Shown one piece after another: positions 2,056-61,374 of a DNA stretch of 64,000 bases. Within the stretch, counting starts at the first letter, position 1. Each line of letters starts with the position of its first letter. The notes beneath the pieces are model-generated. The model was not told where the DNA came from. It searched no databases and saw only the letters and a list, made by a program, of their open reading frames with translations. This stretch comes from Escherichia phage vB_EcoM_G10400. Where the stretch lies: the sequence record MK327937.1; one strand, given 5' to 3'. A program made the position numbers and the translations under genes.

Positions 2056-2097
2056 TCCTATTTACTCCAAGTAATAGGGGCCCGAAGCCCCTTATCA

Positions 2098-2691
2098 TTA
2101 TTTCAGAGAATTAATATATTCCTGAACATCGGCAGAGGTAGTTTCAACCCCAGAAATATTACCATTAAAGGTTTCAACTCGAGCAAGAGTATCTTCAATA
2201 TCAACCTTAGTCAGTGCTGCAATTTCAACTACATCATCAGCAGTACTAATTCCAAGGGCATTCGCTGCACGAGTTTCACGGATATATTCCAATTTAACCG
2301 CAAGTTCTTGACGAGCATCATCTAACTCAACTACTTTCTTGGCGATTTCAATTCGCATTTCAGCATAACCGTCAGCCTTAGTAGTCAACTGCTCAGCTGT
2401 TCGACGATATAGTAAACCGAGTTTAGCATGCATTGTTACATCTTGACCTTCGGAAAGAAGCTTGCGAATTTCACGCTCTTTTGATTCGGCTTGCTTATTC
2501 TTTTCGACAATAAGTTCACGAATACGCTTTTCTTCATTAATAGATTTAACGGAAGCAGTTTTTAGATCTTTAATCTTATCAAGTAGTTTTGCTGCCGCAG
2601 CAGTATACTGTTCTTCAACAGATAGATTTTTAGCCATAGCAGAACCAAGTTTAGTGCGAATAAACTCAACAATTTTCTTCAGTGTGTTCAT
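2098..2691 (-). CDS. hypothetical coiled-coil protein (heptad-rich; possibly PspA/IM30-like, unverified)
   Basis: 197-aa ORF rich in K/E/A/L heptads; preceded on minus strand by a GTTTAC -35 and TATTAT -10 early-promoter-like element. Confidence 0.5.
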
Positions 2692-2748
2692 AGTATTTCC
2701 TTAGGTTGGTATAATTAGATAATATCACGTTTCTAATAGATTGTAAAC

Positions 2749-3084
2749 TTATTCTTCGTCTAGCTCGTCGATAAAGGCGTTGATGGCCTCGATAACGGCA
2801 TCATTGATAGCTAATAAAATAAAATCATCGTCAGTACCTTTAGAAGATTCTAAAGCATTGATATATGCTTGGTTGGCGAGTTCCCAAGCCTTTTTAAAAT
2901 AAGGAGCTTCATCATCAGGACAAATATCCCGCACGCCTTCAAAGATACGTTTGGCATAATCTAACACCCATTGTACAGGCATGTTTTGAGAACGTTCGTT
3001 AAACTCTTTAAAGTCCTTAGATTCAAAAAGCTCTTCAGGATAATTATTTCTATTACAAAAAGCTTTGCTAAAATTACGTTTCAT
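2749..3084 (-). CDS. hypothetical protein
   Basis: 111-aa acidic ORF; early-promoter cassette upstream at 3111-3140. Confidence 0.5.
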   Translation of the reverse strand: MKRNFSKAFCNRNNYPEELFESKDFKEFNERSQNMPVQWVLDYAKRIFEGVRDICPDDEAPYFKKAWELANQAYINALESSKGTDDDFILLAINDAVIEAINAFIDELDEE

Positions 3085-3140
3085 AATGTTTTCCTCATTT
3101 GTATAGGCTCATAATATCTCAATCATGAGCCTATGTAAAC

Positions 3141-3416
3141 TTATTTCATATTATTGAAATATTCTTCTGCGATTTCATCGTTATCATGGTAAACTTTAGA
3201 AGACAGTTTAACATAACCTTCAGCAGTGAACATGTTAATCACAACCTTTACAGTATACCACTGACCATCTTCATTACCCATTACTGCGTAAGTTTCAAAC
3301 ATCGGATGATCAGGACCGATAACTTTAATATCATTCACTGTACGACCGAAATCTTCTGAAACACATTTCATAAAGAAGTTGAACAGTTCGCCGTAATTAT
3401 CCATTTCGTTCTCCAA
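3141..3416 (-). CDS. hypothetical protein
   Basis: 91-aa ORF; early-promoter cassette upstream at 3448-3477. Confidence 0.5.
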   Translation of the reverse strand: MENEMDNYGELFNFFMKCVSEDFGRTVNDIKVIGPDHPMFETYAVMGNEDGQWYTVKVVINMFTAEGYVKLSSKVYHDNDEIAEEYFNNMK

Positions 3417-3605
3417 GTTGTTTTCTGTATCAGTAGTTGATAGTTGTATAGTACCATGGAAGAACAGGGATGTAAACAGTTTTGTGAAAAAATTTTTAAA
3501 AAGTTTTAGGGAATTCTAGGGTCAGGAGGGGCAATTAAAAGATAGGATAATATATTATAAAGGGTAGAAACTAAATGATGCCTAGAGAGGCCCGGAAAGG
3601 CCTAG

Positions 3606-3641
3606 ATACCAAAAAGCCCCAACCTTTTGGTCGGGGCTAAG
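3606..3641 (-). terminator. intrinsic terminator hairpin, copy A of a 36-bp repeat
   Basis: ataccaaaaagccccaaccttttggtcggggctaag: on minus strand a GC stem (gcccc/ggggc) followed by a T-run; 35/36 identical to 4165-4200. Confidence 0.6.
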
Positions 3642-3645
3642 AATG

Positions 3646-4119
3646 TTATTTGATTTGTTTAGCAGACCAAATGCGGTCTTTAATAATTTTTTGGATGTCT
3701 TCAACATACTCAAGAGAGTGAGCATGTGGGTTATCTTTGAAACTATAAGCACGAGCTAGCTTTTGGCCTTCAGTTTTGATTACTAAAAGCTCTTTAAGGA
3801 TAGCTTCATATTTAGAGATAATTCCTTTAACAATATTTTTTTCTTGTGCAGCTTTAGGATCTGCTTTAGGAGCAGGTTTACCTGAAGCCTTTGCAAAAGC
3901 AGCGCCAGTAGCAACTAAACTTTTCCAGGCCATACTAACTGCATTTCCCGTAAATCCTTCCGCTTTCATGTCGCGTGCGAACTGGAATCGCGATTCATCA
4001 GAAGCATCTTTATAAGAATATTTACCCGCTGCAATGGCTGCTTTTGCGACAGCTTGAATTTCGGTGCTAGATGCTTCATTTAACACCGCTTCATTTAAAA
4101 ATTGAGTATATGATTTCAT
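3646..4119 (-). CDS. candidate capsid-targeted internal protein (IP-like; N-terminal CTS-like MKSYTQFLNEA with LxE cleavage motifs)
   Basis: 157-aa ORF whose N-terminus resembles the T4 internal-protein capsid-targeting sequence (MKTYQEF-like) with two LNE/A putative gp21 sites; own TATAAATA late promoter on minus strand at 4160-4167; flanked by 36-bp terminator repeats. Confidence 0.5.
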   Translation of the reverse strand: MKSYTQFLNEAVLNEASSTEIQAVAKAAIAAGKYSYKDASDESRFQFARDMKAEGFTGNAVSMAWKSLVATGAAFAKASGKPAPKADPKAAQEKNIVKGIISKYEAILKELLVIKTEGQKLARAYSFKDNPHAHSLEYVEDIQKIIKDRIWSAKQIK

Positions 4120-4159
4120 CTTATTTCCTGTTTTAATTTGTAGATATTTAATATACTAA

Positions 4160-4167
4160 TATTTATA
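4160..4167 (-). promoter_or_regulatory. T4-type late promoter (TATAAATA) for ORF 3646-4119
   Basis: Plus strand tatttata = TATAAATA on minus strand, ~40 nt upstream of the ATG at 4119. Confidence 0.5.
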
Positions 4168-4200
4168 CCAAAAAGCCCCAACCTTTCGGTCGGGGCTAAG
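4165..4200 (-). terminator. intrinsic terminator hairpin, copy B of the 36-bp repeat (end of tRNA/stable-RNA transcript)
   Basis: ataccaaaaagccccaacctttcggtcggggctaag; hairpin plus T-run on minus strand. Confidence 0.6.
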
Positions 4201-4510
4201 CCTTGCGGCAACCTTGTCGGGGTTCCACCTGCTAAGGCAAGTGTTTGTACGAAACGCCGGGATTCGAACCCGGTTATTAAGCAGTTGACGCTACTCAATA
4301 TTTTTAAAAGGCCATATCTCGACCATATCCGAACGTTCCGTCAAAAACACTACTCGGCTTACGGCAAAGATATTTCCTCGAATCGATAATTCGGTGCGCC
4401 GTTTCTGCTGTGATGTAAGAGGGCATCAATAAACGCAAAGATTATTAACGCAATTCCTTACTCAGGGAACATCAGTCCGACGACTTGCCGGTAGCGACCC
4501 GGCTTCTTGT
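4201..4510 (-). ncRNA. tRNA-like stable RNA(s), by position equivalent to T4 species 1/2 RNAs (rnaC/rnaD); boundaries approximate
   Basis: ~310 nt with no credible ORF between tRNA-Arg and the terminator; contains a T-arm-like element (rc of gggattcgaacccgg) but no complete cloverleaf. Confidence 0.35.
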
Positions 4511-4511
4511 C

Positions 4512-4587
4512 TGGTCGAGGCAGTAGGGATCGAACCTACGACCCAGGACTTAGAAGGTCCTTGCTCTTCCTTCTGAGCTATGCCCCG
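4512..4587 (-). tRNA. tRNA-Arg (anticodon UCU), CCA encoded
   Basis: Minus-strand CGGGGCATAGCTCAG...CCTTCTAAGTCC...GGTTCGATCCCTACTGCCTCGACCA; 7-bp acceptor stem, T-loop, anticodon loop CTTCTAA. Confidence 0.85.
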
Positions 4588-4590
4588 TAA

Positions 4591-5256
4591 TTAAAATTTC
4601 ATTTTTCGACCTTTAAACCATCCTTCTGGAATTGGGTCAGTTTTCTTAATACGTTTAGAAACTTTTTCATCTAATGAATGAATCCACATCATGCCAAATT
4701 GGGAATTCTTTTCACCTTGTTGGTGTTTATTTCTGGCGTGAGATTCTTTCATTTTATTAATAGTTTCAGGAGTATGGGTCTTACCCAAGAAAGATTTAGT
4801 ATTTAAAAATTTCTCTCTATACTTAGGATTATCCCAAAGCTGTTTAAACCTTTCTGAACCCATTTTACGATATTTTTCTTTAAGGTCTGGGTCGTTCTCA
4901 AATCTGGTTTTAAAAGCGGCAGCTCCTTTTAAGGAAGCTTCTTTCTTTTTATCCAAATATTCTTTAGTGTTTAAATGGTCCCAACCACCTTCACCACCTA
5001 ATTTCAAATTATAAACATCAGAGCGCTTTAAAAACTCTTCAGTCACAATATTCTTTTCTGACTCAAACATAGAGGTTTTATCGTCAAAGAACTCTAATAT
5101 TTCTTTAGAAAAATTTTCTATACCATACTTATCTTGGGCTCTTTTTAATAATTTACCAGAACCCATATATCCATCATCTAAATTTTCGGTAGAATGAGCG
5201 CCTATATAGATTTTATTATTAATTTTATTTGTTATTTTATAAATGTAATGGAACAT
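4591..5256 (-). CDS. segB: GIY-YIG homing endonuclease (SegB-like) inside the tRNA cluster
   Basis: 221-aa ORF, N-terminus MFHYIYKITNKINNKIYIGAHS...GYMGSG (GIY-YIG motif); position between tRNA-Ile and tRNA-Arg as in T4. Confidence 0.8.
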   Translation of the reverse strand: MFHYIYKITNKINNKIYIGAHSTENLDDGYMGSGKLLKRAQDKYGIENFSKEILEFFDDKTSMFESEKNIVTEEFLKRSDVYNLKLGGEGGWDHLNTKEYLDKKKEASLKGAAAFKTRFENDPDLKEKYRKMGSERFKQLWDNPKYREKFLNTKSFLGKTHTPETINKMKESHARNKHQQGEKNSQFGMMWIHSLDEKVSKRIKKTDPIPEGWFKGRKMKF

Positions 5257-5297
5257 AAATATCTCCTATTTCTAAGAGTATTTATGTTCTCAAAATA

Positions 5298-5369
5298 TGG
5301 CCCTGGGTGGAATTGAACCACCATCTGGCGATTATGAGTCGCTTGCTTGAACCTTCCAGCTACAGGGCC
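5298..5369 (-). tRNA. tRNA with CAU anticodon (Ile, lysidine type as in T4, or Met)
   Basis: Minus-strand GGCCCTGTAGCTGG...GCGACTCATAATCGCC...GGTGGTTCAATTCCACCCAGGGCCA; anticodon loop CTCATAA; coordinates +/-2. Confidence 0.75.
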
Positions 5370-5375
5370 TTGATA

Positions 5376-5448
5376 TGCTGATTGACGGAATCGAACCGCC
5401 GACGTCCTCATTACAAGTGAGGTGCTCTACCTACTGAGCTAAATCAGC
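5376..5448 (-). tRNA. tRNA-Thr (anticodon UGU)
   Basis: Minus-strand GCTGATTTAGCTCAGTAGGTAGAGCACCTCACTTGTAATGAGG...GGTTCGATTCCGTCAATCAGCA. Confidence 0.85.
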
Positions 5449-5455
5449 GAAATTA

Positions 5456-5542
5456 CGGAGGCGATAGGATTTGAACCTATGAGTCGCCGGAGCGACTGCC
5501 GGTTTTCAAGACCGGTGCATTAAACCACTCTGCCACGCCTCC
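5456..5542 (-). tRNA. tRNA-Ser (anticodon UGA), long variable arm
   Basis: Minus-strand GGAGGCGTGGCAGAGTGG...GGTCTTGAAAACC...GGTTCAAATCCTATCGCCTCCG; abuts tRNA-Pro like the T4 Pro-Ser dimeric precursor. Confidence 0.85.
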
Positions 5543-5544
5543 AG

Positions 5545-5618
5545 TCTCCGCGGCAGGATTTGAACCTACGACATTCTGCTCCCAAAGCAGATGCTCTACC
5601 AAACTGAGCTACACGGAG
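5545..5618 (-). tRNA. tRNA-Pro (anticodon UGG)
   Basis: Minus-strand CTCCGTGTAGCTCAGTTTGGTAGAGCATCTGCTTTGGGAGCAGA...GGTTCAAATCCTGCCGCGGAGA. Confidence 0.85.
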
Positions 5619-5630
5619 TAAATTAAATTT

Positions 5631-5702
<72 letters not shown>

Positions 5703-5708
5703 AAACTT

Positions 5709-5795
5709 TGGTACGAGAAGTGGGACTCGAACCCACAAGGAAATCATTCCGCAGCATTTTAAGTGCTGTGCCTTTACCAATTTGACCATTCTCGC
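5709..5795 (-). tRNA. tRNA-Leu (anticodon UAA), long variable arm, CCA encoded
   Basis: Minus-strand GCGAGAATGGTCAAATTGGTAAAGGCACAGCACTTAAAATGCTG...GGGTTCGAGTCCCACTTCTCGTACCA. Confidence 0.85.
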
Positions 5796-5801
5796 GCTAT
5801 A

Positions 5802-6434
5802 TTATTTATTACGTGAAAAAGACTGTTCTATCAATTCTGGACACTTTCGTTCTATCCATTTTCTAGCTTTTTGTGGGCTTATACCTATTATTTTAGCAGC
5901 TTTACTAACCCATCCAAATTTAGAATAATCGATTTTAACTAATTCTTCGTAAATTTCATCAGTTAAAATCTTTTCATTAATATTTACCAGTAAATGATAT
6001 AATTTATTATCATTAGCAATTTTAATGAATCTTTTATAGTTTCCGCCTTTACTTAAACCTAATGAAGTAATTGCAGATGATATAGTAGCCGAATTTAATA
6101 GTGCGTTTAAAATTTCTTCATCACTAACATTATAACGCTTTTTATTATTTTTAATATTTTTACCAGCAAAAGTATCAGTTTGCGAATGGCAATTTGGACA
6201 TAATAATCTTAAATTTGATTTAAGATGATTTTTGTTATTTCCATCAATATGGTCTAATTGCAGAACAATATGCTTATTTTGCCATTTTGAAATTTTACAA
6301 ATTGCACACTCATATGGAAAAATATTTTCTTTTATTATTTTGTCTTTCAGCTTTCCTGTACTAAAATTTGGATGTTTTCCTTCAAAAATTTCAGCTAATT
6401 TAGTATCCATAATATGATTCCCAATTATTAACAA
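5802..6434 (-). CDS. HNH homing endonuclease-like protein, directly upstream of the tRNA cluster
   Basis: 210-aa ORF with HNH motif region LQLDHIDGNNKNHLKSNLRLLCPNCHSQTD and paired CxxC residues; stop codon 6 nt from the tRNA-Leu 5' end. Confidence 0.7.
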   Translation of the reverse strand: MLIIGNHIMDTKLAEIFEGKHPNFSTGKLKDKIIKENIFPYECAICKISKWQNKHIVLQLDHIDGNNKNHLKSNLRLLCPNCHSQTDTFAGKNIKNNKKRYNVSDEEILNALLNSATISSAITSLGLSKGGNYKRFIKIANDNKLYHLLVNINEKILTDEIYEELVKIDYSKFGWVSKAAKIIGISPQKARKWIERKCPELIEQSFSRNK

Positions 6435-6520
6435 AGGCTCTCAAACAAGAACCCTTGATGATAGAGGGTATTAATCAGTGCGGTATGAGTTAATAATAAC
6501 AAATAATTCTTAAAGCATAT

Positions 6521-6808
6521 TTACCATTTATGATAATACATATTTACGATGCATTCAAGGCCCAAAGGATTCCTGAAAATATCATATTCAAGAGGACCTT
6601 TTTCTGTTTCAATAAAGAAATCAAAATTTACTGTATTAAATTTACGGTCTTCCTTCACTAATTTAACTTGGGAAGATGAACGGTCAACATAAACCTTTTC
6701 AACTTCAAAACACGTTAAAACGCCATAATCATCAATCAAGGCTTTAGCCGCGTCTTGATCATATTTATATCCATTTTCAATGGACGATACTTTTGCATAA
6801 AGAATCAT
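6521..6808 (-). CDS. hypothetical protein (probable ATG start at 6808; the track start at 6814 is GTG)
   Basis: ~95-aa ORF beginning MILYAKVSSIENG; its first 7 codons are duplicated as a gene-start fragment at 7241-7261. Confidence 0.5.
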   Translation of the reverse strand: MILYAKVSSIENGYKYDQDAAKALIDDYGVLTCFEVEKVYVDRSSSQVKLVKEDRKFNTVNFDFFIETEKGPLEYDIFRNPLGLECIVNMYYHKW

Positions 6809-6810
6809 TA

Positions 6811-7191
6811 TCACACTCCGTAGTCTATCTTGACCAATCTACCTTTGTAGTAGCCAAAGTTCTTTGGAAAGGCATCATACTCAAAGAAATCACGGTCAAG
6901 CGTTCTGCATTCATCACCATCAACATCATTATAGAGCTTTTGCAAATCAGATTTAAAAAGCTCCTTATCCTCAACTGGCTCTGCTTTGTGCATCACAACC
7001 ATGAGACCAAATCTGTTTGAGTATGCTATTGGGCATAGGTATTTGTTATCATACCCCTTCCACTGACCTTCTGTAAGATTGCTGAGCATACCCTGCACGA
7101 AGTGTTTCCATGTCTTGGGGATAGGGAACTTAATAGCATACTTATGTGTTAGTAGTACCCATCTGGTTCCACCCGATTTAATTAATTTCAT
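6811..7191 (-). CDS. hypothetical protein
   Basis: 126-aa ORF in a co-oriented array; 4-bp overlap with the downstream gene. Confidence 0.5.
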   Translation of the reverse strand: MKLIKSGGTRWVLLTHKYAIKFPIPKTWKHFVQGMLSNLTEGQWKGYDNKYLCPIAYSNRFGLMVVMHKAEPVEDKELFKSDLQKLYNDVDGDECRTLDRDFFEYDAFPKNFGYYKGRLVKIDYGV

Positions 7192-7265
7192 AGTCTCAGC
7201 TACCTCAATATTAATTTAAGCAATATCATTCCTGTAAGGTAGTACTTTAGCATAAAGAATCATTG

Positions 7266-7676
7266 TCAGCCTCTATCAACGATAGCATGAGTATGGGCAT
7301 TTACGATTTGCCACCAGTCGAAACGATTGAAACCATAATCTGGTTTATTTTCATTTTCTTTAATGATATCACGCAGCTTATCTTCTGTTTCAGCATACGC
7401 AATTAAATCATCATATCCACCACAAGGGTAATAATTATCACCTGCGAATAAAAGAAAATTTACCTTAGATGGATTTACATAATAATGGTCTTTAGGATAT
7501 TTAGTTCCTCTCCAATCAGTTACTTCAACATAACGGTAAGAAAATCCATTTTTACTTTCAATCCAACTCCACGCTTCAAAAGGAGTATTAAAAACTTTAT
7601 CAGGTATTAAATTACCTTCAAAATGAGAAGGATTTGCATAATCCCCAGCATAAACATAATATTCGTTAATACTCAT
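7266..7676 (-). CDS. hypothetical protein
   Basis: 136-aa ORF; start is adjacent to the upstream gene's stop (7677). Confidence 0.5.
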   Translation of the reverse strand: MSINEYYVYAGDYANPSHFEGNLIPDKVFNTPFEAWSWIESKNGFSYRYVEVTDWRGTKYPKDHYYVNPSKVNFLLFAGDNYYPCGGYDDLIAYAETEDKLRDIIKENENKPDYGFNRFDWWQIVNAHTHAIVDRG

Positions 7677-7862
7677 TTATTCACCTTTAGAAATTTTATC
7701 CATAACGATAGCAATTAAACCAATTAAAAATGCTACTACAAGTGAAAACGCATTTTCTGCTGTAGTTAATAATCCGCATATAAATCCAACAAACATTGAA
7801 AAACTAAAAGCAGAAGCAGAAATTGCAATAGCAACATTTCGAATTAATTCACAGCGTTTCAT
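7677..7862 (-). CDS. hypothetical small membrane protein
   Basis: 61-aa ORF, largely hydrophobic (FSFSMFVGFICGLLT...LVVAFLIGLIAIV); early-promoter cassette upstream at 7892-7921. Confidence 0.45.
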   Translation of the reverse strand: MKRCELIRNVAIAISASAFSFSMFVGFICGLLTTAENAFSLVVAFLIGLIAIVMDKISKGE

Positions 7863-7938
7863 TTTATTCTCCTCAGTAGTTGATAGGGTAATAGTATCAC
7901 AACTAAAACCCTATGTAAACAACTTTGTGAAAAATTTA

Positions 7939-8223
7939 TTACAAAAGATTTTTAGCAATAATTTTAAGCTGAGCTACTGAAATATGCTTGGCTTTAAACA
8001 AAGCAGTTTCTTCAGCAGGGGAGATAATGATTGTAGCACCATCTTTCTTAGCGGACCATCCATCACCCAGGTAAACAGTACCTTTAACTTCTTCGCCATC
8101 AACCAGGCTAATCATCGGTTTACCTTCACGTCCTTTGTTTGCTTTAATAACTTCAGAAGTAAGGGTCGCTTCAGTCAAAGTAGAAGCGTTAGTCGTTGAA
8201 GTGAATTCTTGATAAGTTTTCAT
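7939..8223 (-). CDS. ipI: internal protein I-like capsid-targeted protein
   Basis: 94-aa ORF starting MKTYQEF (T4 internal-protein capsid-targeting sequence) with an LTE/A candidate gp21 cleavage site; located next to 57B as ipI is in T4. Confidence 0.65.
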   Translation of the reverse strand: MKTYQEFTSTTNASTLTEATLTSEVIKANKGREGKPMISLVDGEEVKGTVYLGDGWSAKKDGATIIISPAEETALFKAKHISVAQLKIIAKNLL

Positions 8224-8295
8224 TTTATTTTCCTAATTAATTTTGATGAGGTAATAGTATCACTACCTCATCAGCATGTAAACAACTTTGTGAAA

Positions 8296-8992
<697 letters not shown>

Positions 8993-25886: not shown

Positions 25887-27344
25887 ATGATTGAATTAAA
25901 AGAGTTACCTTTTGTTGATAGCGTTCCTGGCGAAGGTCAGGAACGTATTTCATGGATTAAAAATGGTGAAGAAATATTAGGAGCTAGTACTAAGTATGGA
26001 AACGATGGGTCAATGAATAGACCAACTGTTTCCGTGTTTAAAAACGTCGAGGTTCTCGACGAAAATGTAGGAATTCTTAAAACTGCCATTGAAACATCTC
26101 AGGAAGATATTAAAACTATTCAAGGCATTTTAGATGTATCAGGAGATATAGAAGCGCTATCACAGATCAGCGTTAATAAAAATGATATATCAAGTTTAAA
26201 GACGCTCACAAGTGAACATACTGATATATTAAATGGTACAAATACTACGGTTGATAATATTCTTTCTGATATTGGTCCATTTAATTCGCAAGCAAATTCA
26301 GTTTATAGAACGATTAGAAATGATTTGTTATGGATTAAAAGGGAATTAGGACAATATGCTGGACAAGATATTAATGGTCTTCCTGTTGTAGGAAATACCA
26401 GCACGGGAATGAAGCATCGTATTATTAATAATACAGATGCTATAACTTCCCAAGGAATACGTCTAAGTGATTTAGAAGAAAAATTTATTGAATCTGATGT
26501 AGGTTCGCTTACAATCGAAGTAGGAAATCTTAGACAGGAATTAGGACAAAGACCACCTTCATTTAGTGAAAGTATATATTCACGTGTGCATAATTTAGAT
26601 CAATCTCAAATTAATCTTAGTTCCGAAATTAAATCTATCAAAACTTCTATTGGATATCCAGGAAATACTTCAATAATCACAGATGTTAACACTAATACAC
26701 GAGAAATTTCAGCTTTAAATGATGAACTAAATAAAAGTGGCGGCGTTAAACAGCGATTAACTGTTATTGAAACATCGATTGGTTCAGATGATATTCCTTC
26801 TAGTATTAAAGGTCAAATTAAAGATAATACCACTTCTATTGAATCTTTAAATGGAATTGTAGGTGAAAACACCTCGTCCGGTTTAAGAGCTAACGTTTCA
26901 TGGCTAAATCAGATAGTTGGAACTGATTCTAGCGGAGGTCAACCTTCTCCTCCGGGGTCTCTTTTAAATAGAGTTTCAACAGTTGAAACCTCTGTTAATA
27001 GACTTAACAATGATGTTCAAAACTTACAGGTTGAAATTGGTAATAACAATTCCGGAATTAAAGGGCAAGTTGTAACATTAAATAAATTAGTAAATGGAAC
27101 AAATCCGAATGGTTCAACTGTCGAAGAACGCGGATTGACTAATTCAATAAAAGCTAATGAGACTAACATTTCTTCAATTAATCAAGAGATTCGTAGTATT
27201 AAAGGTAATGTGTCCTCATTACAGAGGGATGTCCAGACTTTACAAGAAGCTGGTTATATTCCTGAAGCTCCAAAAGATGGTCAAGCTTACGTTCGTAAAG
27301 ACGGCGAATGGGTATTGCTTTCTACCTTTTTATCACCAGCATAA
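25887..27344 (+). CDS. wac: fibritin (whisker antigen control)
   Basis: 485 aa, coiled-coil-rich; C-terminal foldon-like [27 protein letters not shown]. Confidence 0.9.
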
Positions 27345-56904: not shown

Positions 56905-57195
56905 TTATTTACGGAATGAAATAAAAGCAGCAACTGAAGCAACTAAACTGTCTTCAATATAAACCTCAATTTTTACCGGAGCTTCTGACTCAAATTTACC
57001 TGTTACTACACCTTGGAAAATACTTTCAGTCTGTTCTGGCTTTGAAAAATTTTCAGAAGGAAAAATTCCGAACTTTTTATCTGTTCCAAAAATTTTGATA
57101 AATTCATCGTAAACTGCTTCATTAAAAGCATTATCAGCAGGAATAACTCCTTCAACTACAAGTTCTTGACCTAAAAAGCGCAAAGAAGATTTCAT
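56905..57195 (-). CDS. hypothetical protein (alt.-3-like by position)
   Basis: 96-aa ORF downstream of the alt paralogs. Confidence 0.5.
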   Translation of the reverse strand: MKSSLRFLGQELVVEGVIPADNAFNEAVYDEFIKIFGTDKKFGIFPSENFSKPEQTESIFQGVVTGKFESEAPVKIEVYIEDSLVASVAAFISFRK

Positions 57196-57255
57196 TTTGT
57201 GTTCCTCATGTTATGTCAGTAAGACTACTATAACACAACACGAGGGACTTGTAAA

Positions 57256-59313
57256 CTACATTTTGAACTTTTTAGACATTCCGTTGATGTTAACCAAAGA
57301 AGCCAAGATTTGAGAAACTTCATTTTCCTCTTCTTTTGATTCTTCTACAAGGAATTGATTAAATCCAGCCATTGGACGAACTTCACCAGTTTCCATTAGA
57401 TGGTCTCCATCATATACTGATTCTTCTAATTGTTCAGAAGGAGGAACGATTGTACCTTCGATTAGATACTTGTTATAAGCAGTTTCTTTCATAAAGTACG
57501 TACTTACTTTATTAATCTTCAGTAAAATTCCACGTGGTAGAATAACTTCAGCTTCTGATGGAAATCCTGATAAATGACCTGGAACGATAACTTTGATTCG
57601 CTCAGCTCCTTTAATTATCATACCCACGCTAGTTTCTGCATCTTCATTAGCATATGTAGAATGACTACCCATATGCATCAAATCTTCTGCATCAACGGAA
57701 CCTTCTCCTTCACCAGAAAATACTGCGCCGGAATCATCTAGAGCCATATAGTTTTTACCATGCTCACCGAAGATATTTGGTTTAAGCGATGTGGATACGA
57801 AGTTCTTGAAATAGAACATTTTATTTTCAATGTTATGACGCAAAGTTTTAAAGGTAACTTCTTGCCCACGGTAAAGTGTAGTTCCTGGAGGAAGAACTGA
57901 TCCTTTGGCAAAGGCAGAATCTAACGTCTCGATGTGCTTAATAGCTCGTTCCATGTATTCTTCACGGGTAGAATCTGGTTTACCCAAAAGGAACGAGTTC
58001 ATTTCAACATATGAATCTGCACAATAATCTTCAATTACATCAGATTCAGCCTGAGTCAGTCCTTTTGGAGCTACTTCGGTGCTTGCGTATTCATATGCCT
58101 GGGCAGCAGATTCATTAATCAATTTATAAATGCCATTCATGACAAATTGAATAATAGCTGTCTTTTCATCTGGTGTGGTTTTAGAACCTTTAACTAAATC
58201 ATTAATAATTTTCTTAATAACATCAAAGCTATTAGAAATATTAATGTCAGCAAGATCGCTTAAAATTTTATCAGTTTTATAATCAAAGAATTCTTTATTC
58301 TTTAAATATTCTTGAGAACCTTGATATGTTATATCGCTCTGCAACTTGATAGATGGATCACGTAAACGTGCATGGGCCAATGCAATATGATTTCGGAAGC
58401 TTTCTAGTTCATAATCGTTAGATTTAAAACGAGAAGCACTTCTCATACCACCGATAGCTCCTTTGCTGAAGTTTGAACCAATCTGGATAACGCCAGAGTT
58501 CATCGGACCTTCTGCTTTATATACCGGAACTTTAGATTCAAACTCTTGATATTTCTTGGCAGCAAAGCTATCACCCTGAAGTGAAGCATCAACAGTAGAA
58601 TATTGAGCTTGTGCTGCTAATCGACGACTTATTTTAGTTTTCTGAATAACAGCTTGGTCCGTGCGCTTATCATTTTCTAAAGCAATAGAAGCAGCAACAG
58701 CGACAGCTTTAGGAACAGCATTTCCTGTTTTAACGTCTACATAAACATCACCGACCTTTGATTCAACTTTTGTGAATAACTCAGTTGAAATAGGAGGTAC
58801 ACCTGGAATGTCTTCTAAATTGGCATTTTTACGGTAAACCATAATATATGCATATTTCTTATCATAGTCCCAGATTTCCTTTAAAAGAACATATCGACCT
58901 GCTCCTTTAGTACGTACTAAACGGTCAGCAATAACTTGCATTTGACGAGCTGCGCCATTTGTTTTACTTTTTAGTACGCGGAATAGGCATGCGTCGATTT
59001 TATACTGTTTCATTGTTTGAAGAGCAGTATCAAAAACGGCATTAATGACACCAATTGGATTTCCACCCAAGTTTTTAAGCTTAACTAATGATAGTTTCTC
59101 ATTAACACCTATCATTACGATATGCATCATTTTATCGCCTGGCTTAACGTTTTTATTCGTATCACCACCAGAGGTGTATGTACAAAATCTAAATCCAGGA
59201 AGCACGCTTTCTTCGCCGGCTTGAATAGCAAAAATTTGTGGTATTTTATGCTTAGGATTTAAGTTAACAACCGGCGCCGAAGCGCCGTCAAATAATTCTG
59301 TAATAAGTTCCAT
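57256..59313 (-). CDS. Alt-like ADP-ribosyltransferase paralog (capsid-packaged injected effector family)
   Basis: 685 aa; N-terminus MELITELFD shared with the adjacent ORF; ART-like motifs TTLYRGQ, FVSTSL, SEAEVILPRG (R / STS / E-x-E). Confidence 0.7.
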   Translation of the reverse strand: MELITELFDGASAPVVNLNPKHKIPQIFAIQAGEESVLPGFRFCTYTSGGDTNKNVKPGDKMMHIVMIGVNEKLSLVKLKNLGGNPIGVINAVFDTALQTMKQYKIDACLFRVLKSKTNGAARQMQVIADRLVRTKGAGRYVLLKEIWDYDKKYAYIMVYRKNANLEDIPGVPPISTELFTKVESKVGDVYVDVKTGNAVPKAVAVAASIALENDKRTDQAVIQKTKISRRLAAQAQYSTVDASLQGDSFAAKKYQEFESKVPVYKAEGPMNSGVIQIGSNFSKGAIGGMRSASRFKSNDYELESFRNHIALAHARLRDPSIKLQSDITYQGSQEYLKNKEFFDYKTDKILSDLADINISNSFDVIKKIINDLVKGSKTTPDEKTAIIQFVMNGIYKLINESAAQAYEYASTEVAPKGLTQAESDVIEDYCADSYVEMNSFLLGKPDSTREEYMERAIKHIETLDSAFAKGSVLPPGTTLYRGQEVTFKTLRHNIENKMFYFKNFVSTSLKPNIFGEHGKNYMALDDSGAVFSGEGEGSVDAEDLMHMGSHSTYANEDAETSVGMIIKGAERIKVIVPGHLSGFPSEAEVILPRGILLKINKVSTYFMKETAYNKYLIEGTIVPPSEQLEESVYDGDHLMETGEVRPMAGFNQFLVEESKEEENEVSQILASLVNINGMSKKFKM

Positions 59314-59316
59314 GAT

Positions 59317-61374
59317 TTATCCTTGAACGAACTTGTAAGGCATGTTTGCAATATCTATACAAGACGCAATAATTCCAAGAGATGATTCTACTTTCTGTTT
59401 AACATTTGATGAAACAAATGATGCAAAGTCAACTCTGTCTTCTACTTCAATATCACCTGTCATTGTAACTACTTCGCCGGTTTCCATTAGACGGTCACCG
59501 TCATAAATTACCGATTCGGTGAGTTCTTCTGTGGTCATAACTTCAGCTTGAATAAGCTTGTTGTTAGTTTTAACTGTTCCATCATTGTAAGATGCATCGG
59601 TTATTTTATTAACTTTGACCATTAATCCACGTGGCAAAATGACTTCCATTTCATTTGAAGGTGCTAAACTTCCACCTGGTAAAACAACATTGACTTTATC
59701 AGCCCCAGTAATAACCCATCCAATTCCAACTAAATTATCGCTAGAATTTACTAGTCCTTCATCAGTTTTATCAATAGAAACACTTAAACGCTTTTCGTCT
59801 GGTAAAACACCCACAGATGAATCAGTCATCCAGGTACCAAAAATATTTGGATATAATGATGTTGACACAAAGTTTCTAAAATAAAAAACTCGATTTTTTA
59901 CCATTGCTTCATATATTGAAGGTAACATTCGTTGTGAACGATACAAAGTAATACCTTTTGGTAATCGTTCACCATTTTTAAAGGCTGAATCTAAATTATC
60001 AATAGCTTTTTCTATGTCAGATGCTGTCAAAATACTTGTACGCTCATCTGGATTATATAATCCCAAAAGAGCATTATTTATATCTACATATCCTGAACCT
60101 ACGTATTCACGAATTCCGCGTTTTTGCGCCGGTGTGTATTTAGATGAATCTTTATTTTCGACTATAGGATGTAATGACCATCCAGCGGTAAGAGCATATC
60201 CACGTAATTCTCTTCGAATAATCTTTGTTTTTATTGCATTCCAAGAATTTTGTACTAACTCATTTGCAGCATCTTGGTTTAAATGCGAATGTTTGTTAAT
60301 ATTTCTTTCAAACCAAGCACCTTTATATTTTTCTAAGGTATCATCGACGATAGAAGCAATAGTTTCTAAAGTTTTTATTGAAGTAATAGATTCTTTTTTT
60401 AATTTTTCTAAAGCTTTATTTTTTATTTCTGCATTAATAATGGATTCTTTATCTTCAGGAATTATAGAAGCTTCTCTGAATGCCATCCCAGCTGTAACAC
60501 TGCTAAGAGCATTCTCTAGTGCAAATCCTGAAGTAGAAATTACCGTTAATTCATTAGAATCAGAAATTAAAGGCGCGTCCGCTGGTTTATTTAATTCTGC
60601 CGCTGAAGCCTCAAATTTTTGAAACATCGGTGTTTCAAATCTAGAAGATTCCAATGACTGACTTTGTGCAATTGCTCTACGGGAAATTTTAACTTTAACG
60701 ATTACAGCTTGGTCAGAACGTTTATCATTTTCTTGTGCAATAGATGCTGCAATTGCCTCATTTTTAGTTACTTGAGCTCCAGTATCTTTATTGATATAAA
60801 CATCACCGACCTTCGATTCAACTTTAGTAAAGAGCTCGGTACTAATTTCTGGAACTCCTGGAATGTCTTCTAGTGATACATTTTTGCGATGTATAAGAAT
60901 ATATGCATACTTTTTATCATAATCCCAGAGTTCCTTAAGAAGGACGTATCTGCCACCTGAACGACTACGGATAAGTCTATCAGCAATAACTTGAATTTGT
61001 CGAGCTTGACCAGCGGTTTTAGACTTAAGAATACGAAGCATACAGGCATCAATTTTATACTGACGCATTGTTTGCATCGCAACAGTAAAAACTGAATTGA
61101 TATAATTAATTGGGCTTGGACCAAGACCTTTTAATTTAGCAATTGAACCTTTAGCAGTTAATGTAAAAGGAACAATATGCATCATTTTATCGCCCATCTT
61201 TAAATCGCGATTAGTATCACCTCCAGATGTATAGGTACATAAACGAAAGCCTGGTTGTTCAATTGCATCATCAACATGAACTGAAAAAATTTGCGGTATT
61301 TTCTTCTTTGGATTTAAGTTTGTAATCGGAAGAGTAGTATCTTCGTCAAATAATTCTGTAATAAGTTCCATCAT
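59317..61374 (-). CDS. alt: Alt ADP-ribosyltransferase (adjacent to gene 30, as T4 alt)
   Basis: 685 aa; MMELITELFDEDTTLPITNL...; ART motifs ITLYRSQ, FVSTSL, EMEVILPRG; TATAAATA late promoter on minus strand at 61395-61402. Confidence 0.8.
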   Translation of the reverse strand: MMELITELFDEDTTLPITNLNPKKKIPQIFSVHVDDAIEQPGFRLCTYTSGGDTNRDLKMGDKMMHIVPFTLTAKGSIAKLKGLGPSPINYINSVFTVAMQTMRQYKIDACMLRILKSKTAGQARQIQVIADRLIRSRSGGRYVLLKELWDYDKKYAYILIHRKNVSLEDIPGVPEISTELFTKVESKVGDVYINKDTGAQVTKNEAIAASIAQENDKRSDQAVIVKVKISRRAIAQSQSLESSRFETPMFQKFEASAAELNKPADAPLISDSNELTVISTSGFALENALSSVTAGMAFREASIIPEDKESIINAEIKNKALEKLKKESITSIKTLETIASIVDDTLEKYKGAWFERNINKHSHLNQDAANELVQNSWNAIKTKIIRRELRGYALTAGWSLHPIVENKDSSKYTPAQKRGIREYVGSGYVDINNALLGLYNPDERTSILTASDIEKAIDNLDSAFKNGERLPKGITLYRSQRMLPSIYEAMVKNRVFYFRNFVSTSLYPNIFGTWMTDSSVGVLPDEKRLSVSIDKTDEGLVNSSDNLVGIGWVITGADKVNVVLPGGSLAPSNEMEVILPRGLMVKVNKITDASYNDGTVKTNNKLIQAEVMTTEELTESVIYDGDRLMETGEVVTMTGDIEVEDRVDFASFVSSNVKQKVESSLGIIASCIDIANMPYKFVQG

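What the first reader, a model, noticed from the sequence alone, without database searches (positions are those of the whole stretch)
2719..8283. Recurring early-promoter cassette (GTTTAC, 18 nt, TAyTAT) often embedded in stem-loops, upstream of five small ORFs
On the minus strand, five intergenic regions carry the same architecture: GTTTAC directly after the upstream stop codon, an 18-nt spacer, then TATTAT or TACTAT. The plus-strand coordinates are -35 at 2743-2748, 3135-3140, 3472-3477, 7916-7921 and 8278-8283, with -10 at 2719-2724, 3111-3116, 3448-3453, 7892-7897 and 8254-8259. Three of them have an inverted repeat spanning the spacer (e.g. taggctcat...atgagccta at 3103-3130; tgatgaggta...tacctcatca at 8244-8273), and two share the downstream motif ATCAACTACTGA. 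This resembles the promoter-early stem-loop (PeSL) modules reported to flank shuffled novel ORFs in T4-type phages, so each small ORF here may be an independently mobile early-gene cassette.
Basis: partly seen in the sequence, partly recalled or inferred. Interest (0 to 1): 0.45.

Follow-up and report, generated by a model that had tools for sequence, protein, structure and literature searches.

The report
T4 early promoters flanking swappable genes
These five repeats are the ordinary strong early promoters of a T4-like phage, three of them folded into conserved hairpins. Two of them flank genes that related phages swap in and out, a pattern already published for T4-type phages under the name PeSL.

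Summary
GTTTAC-N18-TAYTAT occurs exactly five times in 64 kb, all on the minus strand, against 0.04 expected by chance. One site is mis-placed by 1 nt.

All five read GTTTACA, so they are sigma-70 promoters of the form TTTACA-N17-TAYTAT. Four have a TGn extended -10 and four have AT-rich upstream DNA.

The window is a Tequatrovirus. The same five promoters and the same inverted repeats sit at orthologous positions in T4, upstream of e.6, e.7, e.8, trna.4 and ipI. All five genes are early at RNA level in T4.

Three promoters (e.7, trna.4, ipI) carry a significant hairpin. Its 5' arm lies in the spacer, its loop holds TGn/-10, and its 3' arm ends near +1. Compensatory changes preserve it across relatives. 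It has no U-run, and the promoter's own transcript lacks it.

ATCAACTACTGA is the common start of T4 early transcripts.

The mobile-cassette idea holds for two slots only. The e.8-e.6 slot holds 0, 1 or 2 different ORFs. The 57B-trna.4 slot holds 0 to 5 internal-protein genes. Homology breakpoints fall at or inside the promoters. e.6, e.8 and trna.4 stay in place, and two of the promoters head operons.

All of this matches published work (Arbiol 2010; Comeau 2014, T4/PST consensus TTTACW-N17-TAYWAT; Repoila 1994). Verdict: known biology, low interest.

The parts
2719..2748 (-). Early promoter P_e.6: GTTTACA, 17-nt spacer, TGn, TATTAT. It starts directly after the e.7 stop codon. No significant hairpin.
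   Evidence: Pattern match. Identical site in T4. Fold z about 0 to +1.5.
3111..3140 (-). Early promoter P_e.7: GTTTACA-N17-TATTAT, no TGn. It starts directly after the e.8 stop codon.
3103..3134 (-). Hairpin enclosing the -10 of P_e.7. Arms are ATAGGCTCATGAT and ATTATGAGCCTAT; -18 kcal/mol as RNA.
   Evidence: (z -5.4 to -5.5). Compensatory variants in relatives: TGGGCTCAT/ATGAGCCCA and CAGGCTCAT/ATGAGCCTG.
3448..3489 (-). Early promoter P_e.8 with upstream consensus TTTCACAAAACT, then GTTTACA-N17-TGg-TACTAT. It belongs to a near-identical promoter repeat dispersed through T4. No local hairpin. Weak complementarity between the spacer and the Shine-Dalgarno (SD) region.
   Evidence: T4 copies at 27080, 53943, 166807 and others. 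Duplex z -1.5.
7891..7932 (-). Early promoter P_trna.4: TTTCACAAAGTT upstream element, GTTTACA-N17-TGa-TACTAT. It heads trna.4, trna.3, orf126, trna.2 and the tRNA cluster.
7883..7914 (-). Hairpin enclosing TGn/-10 of P_trna.4 (ATAGGGT ... ACCCTAT, with an inner TAGT/ACTA stem).
   Evidence: Present in 24 of 25 distinct relatives with different stem sequences. Covariation.
8254..8295 (-). Early promoter P_ipI: TTTCACAAAGTT upstream element, GTTTACA-N17-TGa-TACTAT. It is 78% identical over 81 nt to P_trna.4, which lies 363 nt downstream in direct orientation.
8244..8273 (-). Hairpin enclosing TGn/-10 of P_ipI (TGATGAGGTAGTG ... TATTACCTCATCA; -17.4 kcal/mol).
   Evidence: z -3.8 to -4.6.
3430..3441 (-). 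ATCAACTACTGA, the predicted first bases of the P_e.8 transcript (initial transcribed region).
   Evidence: Predicted start 7 nt after the -10. The shorter core ATCAACTAC follows 8 of the 36 early-strand promoter matches in T4.
7873..7884 (-). ATCAACTACTGA, the predicted first bases of the P_trna.4 transcript.
2098..2691 (-). e.6 homologue (197 aa; PHROG 1203, function unknown). Conserved in synteny.
2749..3084 (-). e.7 homologue (111 aa; PHROG 7266, function unknown). Variable cassette. The replaced unit is about 2708-3105, made of the e.7 leader, the ORF and the -35/-10 of P_e.6.
3141..3404 (-). e.8 homologue (87 aa from the ATG at 3404). Conserved.
7677..7862 (-). trna.4 homologue (61 aa, predicted membrane protein in T4). 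Conserved.
7939..8223 (-). ipI-type internal head protein (94 aa; Pfam IPI_T4 nuclease inhibitor; 89% identical to T4 IpI). Variable cassette. The variable body is about 7933-8203, downstream of the conserved MKTYQEF leader.
57227..57256 (-). It lies directly after the stop of an Alt-like ORF and upstream of an alt.-3 homologue.

Best explanation
The five sites are the early promoters of a T4-like (Tequatrovirus) genome. They drive the homologues of T4 e.6, e.7, e.8, trna.4 (and the tRNA operon) and ipI.

Host sigma-70 RNA polymerase recognises an AT-rich upstream element, the -35 TTTACA, a 17-nt spacer, usually an extended -10 TGn, and TA(C/T)TAT. Transcription should start about 7 nt later. 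That gives unstructured leaders beginning AT(C/A)..., of which ATCAACTACTGA is one.

In three of the five, the spacer is complementary to the bases between -10 and +1. A hairpin therefore forms only in RNA that reads through from the upstream gene, or in extruded DNA. The promoter's own transcript lacks the 5' arm.

The likely role of the hairpin is to mark and insulate the end of the upstream message, either by attenuating read-through or by protecting its 3' end. This step is inferred, not shown.

These promoters are 65-80% identical repeats of 60-85 bp in direct orientation. They also act as portable homology for the phage's recombination system. The gene between two of them can therefore be lost, gained or replaced, each arriving with a promoter.

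Comparison with relatives shows this for the e.7 slot and the internal-protein slot, but not for e.6, e.8 or trna.4. This is the published PeSL (promoter-early stem-loop) picture.
For: - The motif is non-random: 5 matches against 0.04 expected, all on the gene strand and all in gaps between genes.
- In T4, the looser GTTTAC-N17-19-TANNWT gives 36 matches on the early-gene strand and 3 on the other. Nearly all are 25-60 nt upstream of an SD plus ATG.
- The window is a Tequatrovirus, with 937 related phage records at 90-97% identity.
- The same five promoters and hairpins are at orthologous sites in T4.
- T4 early promoters are described as UP/-35/TGn/-10 promoters (PMC2988021).
- e.6, e.7, e.8, trna.4 and ipI are classed early at RNA level in T4 (PMC9697503 supplement).
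- Hairpin z-scores are -3.8 to -5.5. The predicted own leaders fold at -1.2 to 0.0 kcal/mol.
- Covariation: 84.8% of cells are paired, against 33-55% when the partner is slid. 8 of 11 pairs have changes on both sides, and 0 of 500 shuffles reach the observed score.
- Stem variants include GGGT/ACCC, GGGCT/AGCCC, GGACTA/TAGTCC, GGGATA/TATCCC and GGGTTAT/ATAACCC.
- Cassette behaviour: the e.8-e.6 slot is empty in L011. It holds e.7 in the window, T4 and L034. It holds an unrelated 132-aa ORF in L012, L013, L014 and L017, and two ORFs in L007. Each ORF is preceded by a promoter with a hairpin.
- L011 and L012 differ by a unit flanked by the direct repeat AAATAAAAnGTTTACA.
- The IP slot holds 0-5 genes.
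- Breakpoints in 13 close relatives cluster at 2707-2717, 3082-3105, 7900-7903/7932 and 8204-8209.
- Chimeric promoters exist. L027 combines the 5' half of a P_trna.4-type promoter with the 3' half of a P_ipI-type promoter. L035 has a whole P_trna.4-type promoter after 57B.
- Prevalence: e.7 182 records against e.8 596; IpI 290 against trna.4 778.
- Published model: PMC2839356 and PMC4122927.
Against: - No transcription start was measured for this phage. Early timing is transferred from T4 by orthology.
- The hairpins have no U-run, and the terminator scan does not call them. A terminator role, shown only for a G/C-rich phi1 element in the literature, is doubtful here.
- RNA-level and DNA-level function could not be separated: 6 G.U against 4 A.C pairs.
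- Two of the five promoters have no hairpin.
- The e.7 replacement boundaries lie at the 3' edges of the promoters and the leaders. L004 and L035 carry extra sequence (a promoter remnant lacking its -35), not a clean promoter-to-promoter crossover.
- Many other breakpoints in the region are unrelated to promoters.
- No mini-circle or recombination event was observed; only its presumed products were seen.
Confidence: 0.82

Rival explanations
1. These are ordinary, vertically inherited early promoters. The hairpins and the neighbouring gene turnover are unrelated to each other. Gene content changes through general homologous or illegitimate recombination and homing-endonuclease activity. Promoters appear at junctions simply because they fill the intergenic DNA.
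For: - e.6, e.8 and trna.4 with their promoters are stable across distant relatives.
- Most breakpoints in 1-10 kb are at terminator repeats (3611-3641, 4165), around segB (4592-5298), around the HNH gene (5798-6417) and around orf126 (6813-7243).
- The L004/L035 junction is not a clean promoter crossover.
Against: - Junctions fall repeatedly inside the conserved boxes, for example just upstream of GTGATACTAT at 7900-7903 in six relatives.
- Chimeric promoters exist.
- The L011/L012 indel is bounded by a -35 direct repeat.
- Every inserted ORF brings its own promoter.
Confidence: 0.25
2. The stem-loops are transcription terminators for the upstream gene, so each element is a back-to-back terminator and promoter. 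This is the function the PeSL authors proposed.
For: - A phi1 PeSL stem-loop terminated transcription in a lacZ reporter (PMC2839356).
- The hairpins lie just after the upstream stop codon and exist only in read-through RNA.
- The structure is conserved.
Against: - No U-run follows any of the three stems, and the terminator scan ignores them. The same scan finds canonical terminators at 3615-3638 and 4174-4197.
- The PeSL authors themselves describe the T-even IP-associated stems as weaker and AT-rich.
- In T4 the downstream genes are also reached by read-through (general T4 knowledge, PMC2988021).
Confidence: 0.3
3. The inverted repeats act in DNA. Cruciform or hairpin extrusion at the promoter creates a recombination hot spot, for example a target for a structure-specific nuclease, or it helps the promoter to open.
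For: - Complementarity is conserved irrespective of sequence.
- Junctions map inside the loop and -10.
- The PeSL authors raise the idea of a structure-specific DNA-binding protein.
Against: - G.U-type pairs occur (6 outside the promoter boxes), and DNA would tolerate these poorly. A.C pairs occur almost as often (4), so the test is inconclusive.
- The stems are short, 7-13 bp.
- There is no direct evidence.
Confidence: 0.12
4. The motif is a chance recurrence in AT-rich DNA.
For: A generic sigma-70 scan is noisy here: 57 hits against 39 expected.
Against: - The specific pattern gives 5 hits against 0.04 expected.
- The extended 19-nt upstream consensus occurs 3 times against 0.01 expected.
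- The sites show strict strand and intergenic placement and are orthologous in T4.
Confidence: 0.01

Closest known systems
Bacteriophage T4 early promoters (Pe), sigma-70 'UP/-35/TGn/-10' class (Hinton 2010, PMC2988021; lists in Miller et al. 2003, not held)
   Same: - GTTTACA -35, 17-nt spacer, TGn, TA(C/T)TAT and an AT-rich upstream element.
- The same sequences at the same five gene boundaries in T4 itself.
- The downstream genes are early in T4.
   Different: Nothing material. The window differs from T4 by a few substitutions in spacers and flanks. Transcription starts were not measured for this phage.
PeSL (promoter-early stem-loop) cassettes of T4-type phages (Arbiol et al. 2010, PMC2839356; Comeau et al. 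2014, PMC4122927)
   Same: - A composite of an AT-rich region, an early promoter, a stem-loop, an SD and a start codon.
- The T4/PST consensus TTTACW-N17-TAYWAT is matched 5 of 5 times.
- The stem lies between -35 and -10 and overlaps -10, as is most common in phi1.
- Association with indels and replacements of small ORFs in hyperplastic regions.
   Different: - Only 3 of 5 promoters have a stem.
- The stems are not the GGGG...CCCC type and lack U-runs.
- For PST the 2014 legend places the stems just upstream of the promoter, whereas here they span the -10.
- Only 2 of 5 downstream ORFs are actually variable.
- Mini-circles and terminator activity were not tested.
Promoter/leader repeats flanking the internal-protein (IP) genes of T-even phages (Repoila et al. 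1994, as cited in PMC2839356)
   Same: - It is the ipI locus between 57B and trna.4, with IP genes of different sequence.
- Each IP gene sits behind a T4 early promoter with an AT-rich stem-loop and the conserved MKT(Y/F)xEF leader.
- The slot holds 0-5 IP genes in relatives.
   Different: None found. The primary paper could not be read here.
T4 genes e, soc, 49 and I-TevI: a promoter embedded in the 5' strand of an RNA structure that exists only in longer read-through transcripts (Uzan & Miller 2010, PMC3014915)
   Same: The logic is the same. The promoter lies inside the structure, so its own transcript lacks one arm. In some relatives (L005, L010, L021, L036) the 3' arm contains the SD of trna.4.
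   Different: - Those cases use late promoters and sequester the ribosome-binding site.
- In the window the three hairpins end 8-20 nt before the SD and do not sequester it.
- Only P_e.8 shows weak spacer-SD pairing.

Membership tests
T4-type early promoter | -35 GTTTAC(A/T), read as TTTACA, with a 17±1-nt spacer to a TAnnnT -10 | tested here: met
   5 of 5 sites are GTTTACA-N17-TA(C/T)TAT.
T4-type early promoter | Extended -10 (TGn) and an AT-rich upstream (UP-like) region | tested here: met
   TGn is present in 4 of 5, the exception being P_e.7. AT content of -60..-36 is 0.84-0.88 in 4 of 5 and 0.60 at P_e.6, where that stretch is coding. TTTCACAAARYT occurs at 3 of 5.
T4-type early promoter | Located upstream of, and co-oriented with, prereplicative genes, with a strand bias genome-wide | tested here: met
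   All five are intergenic on the gene strand. In T4 there are 36 matches on the early-gene strand against 3 on the other.
T4-type early promoter | Transcription starts immediately after infection by unmodified host RNA polymerase, independent of phage protein synthesis | not testable with these tools
   Only indirect evidence: the orthologous T4 genes are classed early at RNA level.
PeSL cassette | Early promoter matching the group's consensus (T4/PST: TTTACW-N17-TAYWAT), followed by an SD and a start codon | tested here: met
   5 of 5 match. The ATG lies 26-43 nt after the -10 and is preceded by an SD.
PeSL cassette | Stable stem-loop within or next to the promoter | tested here: inconclusive
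   Met at P_e.7, P_trna.4 and P_ipI (z -3.8 to -5.5). Not met at P_e.6 and P_e.8 (z about 0 or positive). Conserved by covariation where present.
PeSL cassette | The stem-loop terminates or attenuates upstream transcription | not testable with these tools
   The sequence argues against a canonical terminator, because there is no U-run. A reporter assay or 3'-end mapping is needed.
PeSL cassette | Flanks ORFs that are inserted, deleted or replaced between close relatives, with junctions in or near the element | tested here: inconclusive
   Met for the e.7 slot and the IP slot. Not met for e.6, e.8 and trna.4, which are syntenic throughout.
PeSL cassette | Recombination between tandem elements yields excised mini-circles | not testable with these tools
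   Only presumed products were seen: the L011 vs L012 indel bounded by AAATAAAAnGTTTACA and chimeric promoters.
T4 middle (MotA-dependent) promoter | MotA box (a/t)(a/t)TGCTT(t/c)A centred near -30, replacing the -35 | tested here: not met
   No TGCTT lies at the right distance in any of the five. P_ipI has TGCTGA in the window and TACTGA in T4, so it is not conserved.
Intrinsic terminator | G+C-rich stem followed by a run of T | tested here: not met
   None of the three promoter hairpins is called. The canonical examples nearby, at 3615-3638 and 4174-4197, are called.

The most novel reading that the evidence does not exclude
The hairpin across TGn/-10 may be more than a by-product or a weak terminator. 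It could be one form of a general device in T4-like early promoters, in which the promoter sits inside an RNA structure that can form only in read-through transcripts. The origin of a transcript would then decide its fate.

Local hairpins would insulate or stabilise the upstream message. In a second class the promoter spacer would act as an anti-Shine-Dalgarno sequence that silences translation of the downstream gene from read-through RNA.

Support in T4 is partial. 9 of 32 early promoters show spacer-TIR complementarity beyond shuffles, about 5% being expected by chance. The strongest are ndd.4, nrdC.8, regB and denV at -17 to -21 kcal/mol. The mean shift across all 32 is not significant (p = 0.08). 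Several trna.4 promoters in relatives pair spacer CTCC with SD GGAG. This arrangement is documented for late promoters (genes e, soc, 49, I-TevI). I did not find it described for early promoters.
Probability: 0.2. Interest if true: 0.45.

Novelty: already known. Interest (0 to 1): 0.15.

Why it matters
The practical value is in annotation. These sites give ready-made early-promoter coordinates for this phage. They mark the e.7 slot and the ipI slot as the places where accessory genes are exchanged. IpI is an anti-restriction (nuclease inhibitor) protein, so these may be host-range or anti-defence genes.

Conceptually nothing new is added. T4 early promoters, their consensus, and their role as portable homology for gene shuffling (PeSLs, IP-locus repeats) are all published.

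The one open point worth a specialist's attention is why the stem across the -10 is kept by compensatory change when it is not a canonical terminator.

Tried and rejected
- Generic sigma-70 scan: too noisy in this AT-rich DNA to be informative, 57 hits against 39 expected.
- Rfam at E<=1 over 1-10 kb: only the tRNAs plus four weak below-threshold matches inside the tRNA cluster; nothing at the promoter hairpins.
- RNA versus DNA level of the hairpin, by G.U against A.C counts: inconclusive, 6 against 4.
- Spacer-SD (anti-SD) pairing in the window: not significant. The best case is P_e.8, z -1.5, reached by 41 of 500 shuffles. Folding the whole P_e.8 leader gave z -1.1.
- Hairpin as a general property of T4 early promoters: rejected. 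Only about 11 of 33 T4 promoters have z <= -2.7.
- MotA-box reading of P_ipI (TGCTGA): rejected, because it is not conserved in T4.
- IMG/VR scan with the 19-nt upstream consensus: returned only 19 loci and few Tequatroviruses. It showed that the consensus precedes many unrelated genes, so it is generic.
- Miller et al. 2003 (the T4 promoter list) is not held, and the supplements of PMC4122927 are not held. I could not check whether these exact sites are listed as PeSLs or as mapped Pe starts.
- Two literature searches for T4 start-site maps found none usable.

Full report
**1. What is in the sequence**

On the minus strand, GTTTAC-N18-TAYTAT matches exactly five times in the 64-kb window: 2719-2748, 3111-3140, 3448-3477, 7891-7920 and 8254-8283. 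Dinucleotide shuffles give a mean of 0.04 matches and never five.

It should be 7915-7920 and 7891-7896.

All five continue GTTTACA. The element is therefore TTTACA, a canonical 17-nt spacer, and TA(C/T)TAT. Four of the five have TG one base upstream of the -10.

Three share the 19-nt upstream string TTTCACAAA(A/G)(C/T)TGTTTACA, against 0.01 expected. The 25 nt upstream of the -35 are 84-88% A+T at four sites.

The -35 abuts the upstream stop codon at only two sites. The gaps at the other three are 12, 18 and 168 nt.

As RNA they fold at -17 to -18 kcal/mol, with z = -5.5, -3.9 and -3.8 against shuffles. The other two promoters fold no better than shuffles.

ATCAACTACTGA occurs twice, at 3430-3441 and 7873-7884.

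**2. What the locus is**

The region matches 937 phage records at 90-97% identity. They are nearly all T4-like phages of Escherichia, Shigella, Yersinia and Salmonella.

By synteny with T4 and tblastn, the genes behind the five sites are e.6 (2098-2691), e.7 (2749-3084), e.8 (3141-3404), trna.4 (7677-7862) and an ipI-type internal head protein (7939-8223). The last is 89% identical to T4 IpI and hits Pfam IPI_T4.

The other four belong to PHROG families of unknown function.

T4 itself has the same five promoters, with the same inverted repeats, at the orthologous boundaries.

**3. Are they promoters?**

In the whole T4 genome, the looser pattern GTTTAC-N17-19-TANNWT is found 36 times on the early-gene strand and 3 times on the other. 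Almost every hit lies 25-60 nt upstream of an SD and a start codon.

Hinton's review describes T4 early promoters as UP/-35/TGn/-10 promoters with extra regions of consensus (PMC2988021).

In the T4 time-course data of Wolfram-Schauerte et al., e.6, e.7, e.8, trna.4 and ipI are all early at RNA level (PMC9697503 supplement).

Direct start-site data for this phage do not exist here. Early timing is inferred by orthology.

With a start 7 nt after the -10, the transcripts would begin ATACC, ATACA, ATCAAC, ATCAAC and ATCAAA. Their leaders are unstructured, at -1.2 to 0.0 kcal/mol.

ATCAACTACTGA is therefore the initial transcribed sequence. The shorter core ATCAACTAC follows 8 of the 36 T4 early-strand matches. 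It is part of the promoter family consensus, not a separate element.

**4. The hairpins**

In all three cases the 5' arm lies in the spacer, the loop holds TGn and the -10, and the 3' arm fills -6 to +1. The structure cannot form in the promoter's own transcript. It can form only in RNA reading through from the upstream gene, or in DNA.

None of the three is followed by a T-run, and the terminator scan does not call them. The same scan does call the two canonical terminators at 3615-3638 and 4174-4197.

The structure is nevertheless under selection. Upstream of trna.4, 24 of 25 distinct relatives have a hairpin in this position with different stems: GGGT/ACCC, GGGCT/AGCCC, GGACTA/TAGTCC, GGGATA/TATCCC and GGGTTAT/ATAACCC.

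On a 15-sequence alignment, 84.8% of cells pair, against 33-55% when the partner is slid. Eight of 11 pairs carry changes on both sides, and no shuffle reaches the observed score.

The e.7 hairpin also shows compensatory variants.

The hairpin is not a universal feature of T4 early promoters. About 11 of 33 in T4 have one.

I could not tell whether it acts in RNA or DNA.

**5. Are the ORFs mobile cassettes?**

Two of them are.

*The e.8-e.6 slot.* It is empty in L011. It holds e.7 in the window, T4 and L034. It holds an unrelated 132-aa ORF in L012, L013, L014 and L017, and two ORFs in L007. Annotated relatives carry a 172-176-aa ORF there, sometimes together with an e.7-like ORF.

Every ORF in the slot is preceded by an early promoter with a hairpin. 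L011 and L012 differ by a unit bounded by the direct repeat AAATAAAAnGTTTACA.

*The slot between 57B and trna.4.* It holds 0 to 5 internal-protein genes, all with the MKT(Y/F)xEF leader but with different bodies.

*Prevalence in the phage collection.* e.7 is found in 182 records against 596 for e.8. The IpI type is found in 290 against 778 for trna.4.

*Breakpoints.* In 13 close relatives, homology to the window breaks at these positions:
- 2707-2717, just downstream of the -10 of P_e.6.
- 3082-3105, at the end of the P_e.7 hairpin.
- 7900-7903, just upstream of GTGATACTAT of P_trna.4 (six relatives).
- 7932, the upstream edge of that promoter.
- 8204-8209, just after the IP leader codons.

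*Chimeric promoters.* L027 joins the 5' half of a P_trna.4-type promoter to the 3' half of a P_ipI-type promoter. L035 has the whole P_trna.4-type promoter after 57B.

P_ipI and P_trna.4 are 78% identical over 81 nt and lie in direct orientation 363 nt apart.

*Where the idea fails.*
- e.6, e.8 and trna.4 keep their place even in relatives whose neighbours are only 40-60% identical.
- P_e.6 and P_trna.4 are each followed by several genes.
- The junctions in L004 and L035 carry a promoter remnant lacking its -35, not a clean crossover.
- Most other breakpoints in the first 10 kb lie at terminator repeats, around segB, around an HNH gene and around orf126.

**6. Comparison with the literature**

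Arbiol et al. 2010 defined PeSLs in phi1/RB49 as an AT-rich region, a strong sigma-70-like promoter, a stem-loop, an SD and a start codon. The stem lies most often between -35 and -10 or overlaps the -10. The authors showed terminator activity for one stem, and mini-circles (PMC2839356).

The same paper notes that Repoila et al. 1994 had seen analogous elements at the T-even IP loci. Those are built on T4 early promoters, with weaker AT-rich stems.

Comeau et al. 2014 extended PeSLs to the T4/PST pair, with the consensus TTTACW-N17-TAYWAT (PMC4122927). All five sites here match it.

The finding therefore re-describes known elements in another Tequatrovirus.

The related idea of a promoter buried in an RNA structure that exists only in longer transcripts is documented for the late promoters of e, soc, 49 and I-TevI (PMC3014915).

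**7. Residual lead**

In T4, 9 of 32 early promoters have a spacer complementary to the translation initiation region of the gene they drive, beyond shuffles. ndd.4, nrdC.8, regB and denV reach -17 to -21 kcal/mol. The mean shift across all 32 promoters is not significant (p = 0.08).

Several trna.4 promoters in relatives pair spacer CTCC with SD GGAG.

In the window this is weak. It is a lead, not a result.

**8. Verdict**

- The elements are known T4 early promoters of the PeSL type.
- Interest is low.

Noticed in passing
window 57227-57256 (minus): A sixth early-promoter-like site, GTTTACA-N17-TGt-TATAGT. It lies directly after the stop of an Alt-like ORF and upstream of an alt.-3 homologue (56905-57195, DUF5498).
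   Followed up: partly
window 57256-59313 and 59317-61374 (minus): Two tandem full-length 685-aa ORFs sit at the alt locus. T4 has one alt gene plus the remnants alt.-1 and alt.-2, which its record annotates as an old partial duplication. This phage appears to keep two complete Alt (ADP-ribosyltransferase) paralogues. The identification is by position and length only; no homology search was run.
   Followed up: no
window 3646-4119 (minus), with flanks 3615-3638 and 4174-4197: A 157-aa ORF absent from T4 (PHROG 2280, function unknown). It is flanked by two copies of the same canonical terminator hairpin, AGCCCCGACC(G/A)AAAGGTTGGGGCTTTTTGGTAT. It is preceded by TATAAATA, the T4 late-promoter consensus. 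Its N-terminus, MKSYTQFLNEA, resembles the internal-protein leader. It looks like a cassette bounded by terminator repeats rather than by promoters.
   Followed up: partly
window 6811-7191 (minus), with repeats near 7240-7262 and 6786-6808: A 126-aa ORF between trna.3 and trna.2, absent from T4. It is flanked by a direct repeat, (G/A)CAATGATTCTTTATGC(T/A)AAAGTA, which duplicates the start of trna.2. Homology to relatives breaks at 6813 and 7243.
   Followed up: partly
window 5802-6410 (minus): An HNH-type ORF (annotated as a homing endonuclease in relatives) occupies the position of tRNA-Gln, upstream of tRNA-Leu. Homology breaks at 5798 and 6417. segB (4591-5256) is likewise present or absent, with breaks at 4592 and 5298. 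Relatives differ in tRNA content, carrying His, Asn, Tyr or Lys genes.
   Followed up: partly
window 8296-8751 (minus); loci L005-L039: 57B (annotated as the anti-CBASS protein Acb1 in some records) is 74-88% identical in relatives whose adjacent gp1 and 57A are only 35-65% identical. Part of this is search bias. It could also reflect strong constraint or exchange of this gene.
   Followed up: no
loci L005, L010, L021 and L036, upstream of trna.4; T4 promoters at 166807, 65413, 62797 and 53943: The promoter spacer is complementary to the Shine-Dalgarno region of the downstream gene, for example ATCTCCATTTG...CAAATGGAGAT. Only read-through transcripts could therefore sequester the ribosome-binding site. 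This holds for 9 of 32 T4 early promoters beyond shuffles.
   Followed up: partly
window 2056-2097 (minus), between e.6 and e.5: A G+C-rich hairpin, AGGGGCTTCGGGCCCCT, lies directly after the e.6 stop with no promoter attached. It is annotated as a putative terminator in phage G4507.
   Followed up: no
T4 genome (L059-L062): 27080, 53943, 55384, 70696, 146875, 163673, 166807, 167086: A family of near-identical promoter repeats of about 60 bp (TTTTTCACAAAAC-GTTTACA...GTTCTTCC-TGGTACTATACAACTATCAACTACT) is dispersed through the early regions. P_e.8 in the window belongs to it. Such repeats are obvious substrates for homologous recombination and deletions.
   Followed up: partly
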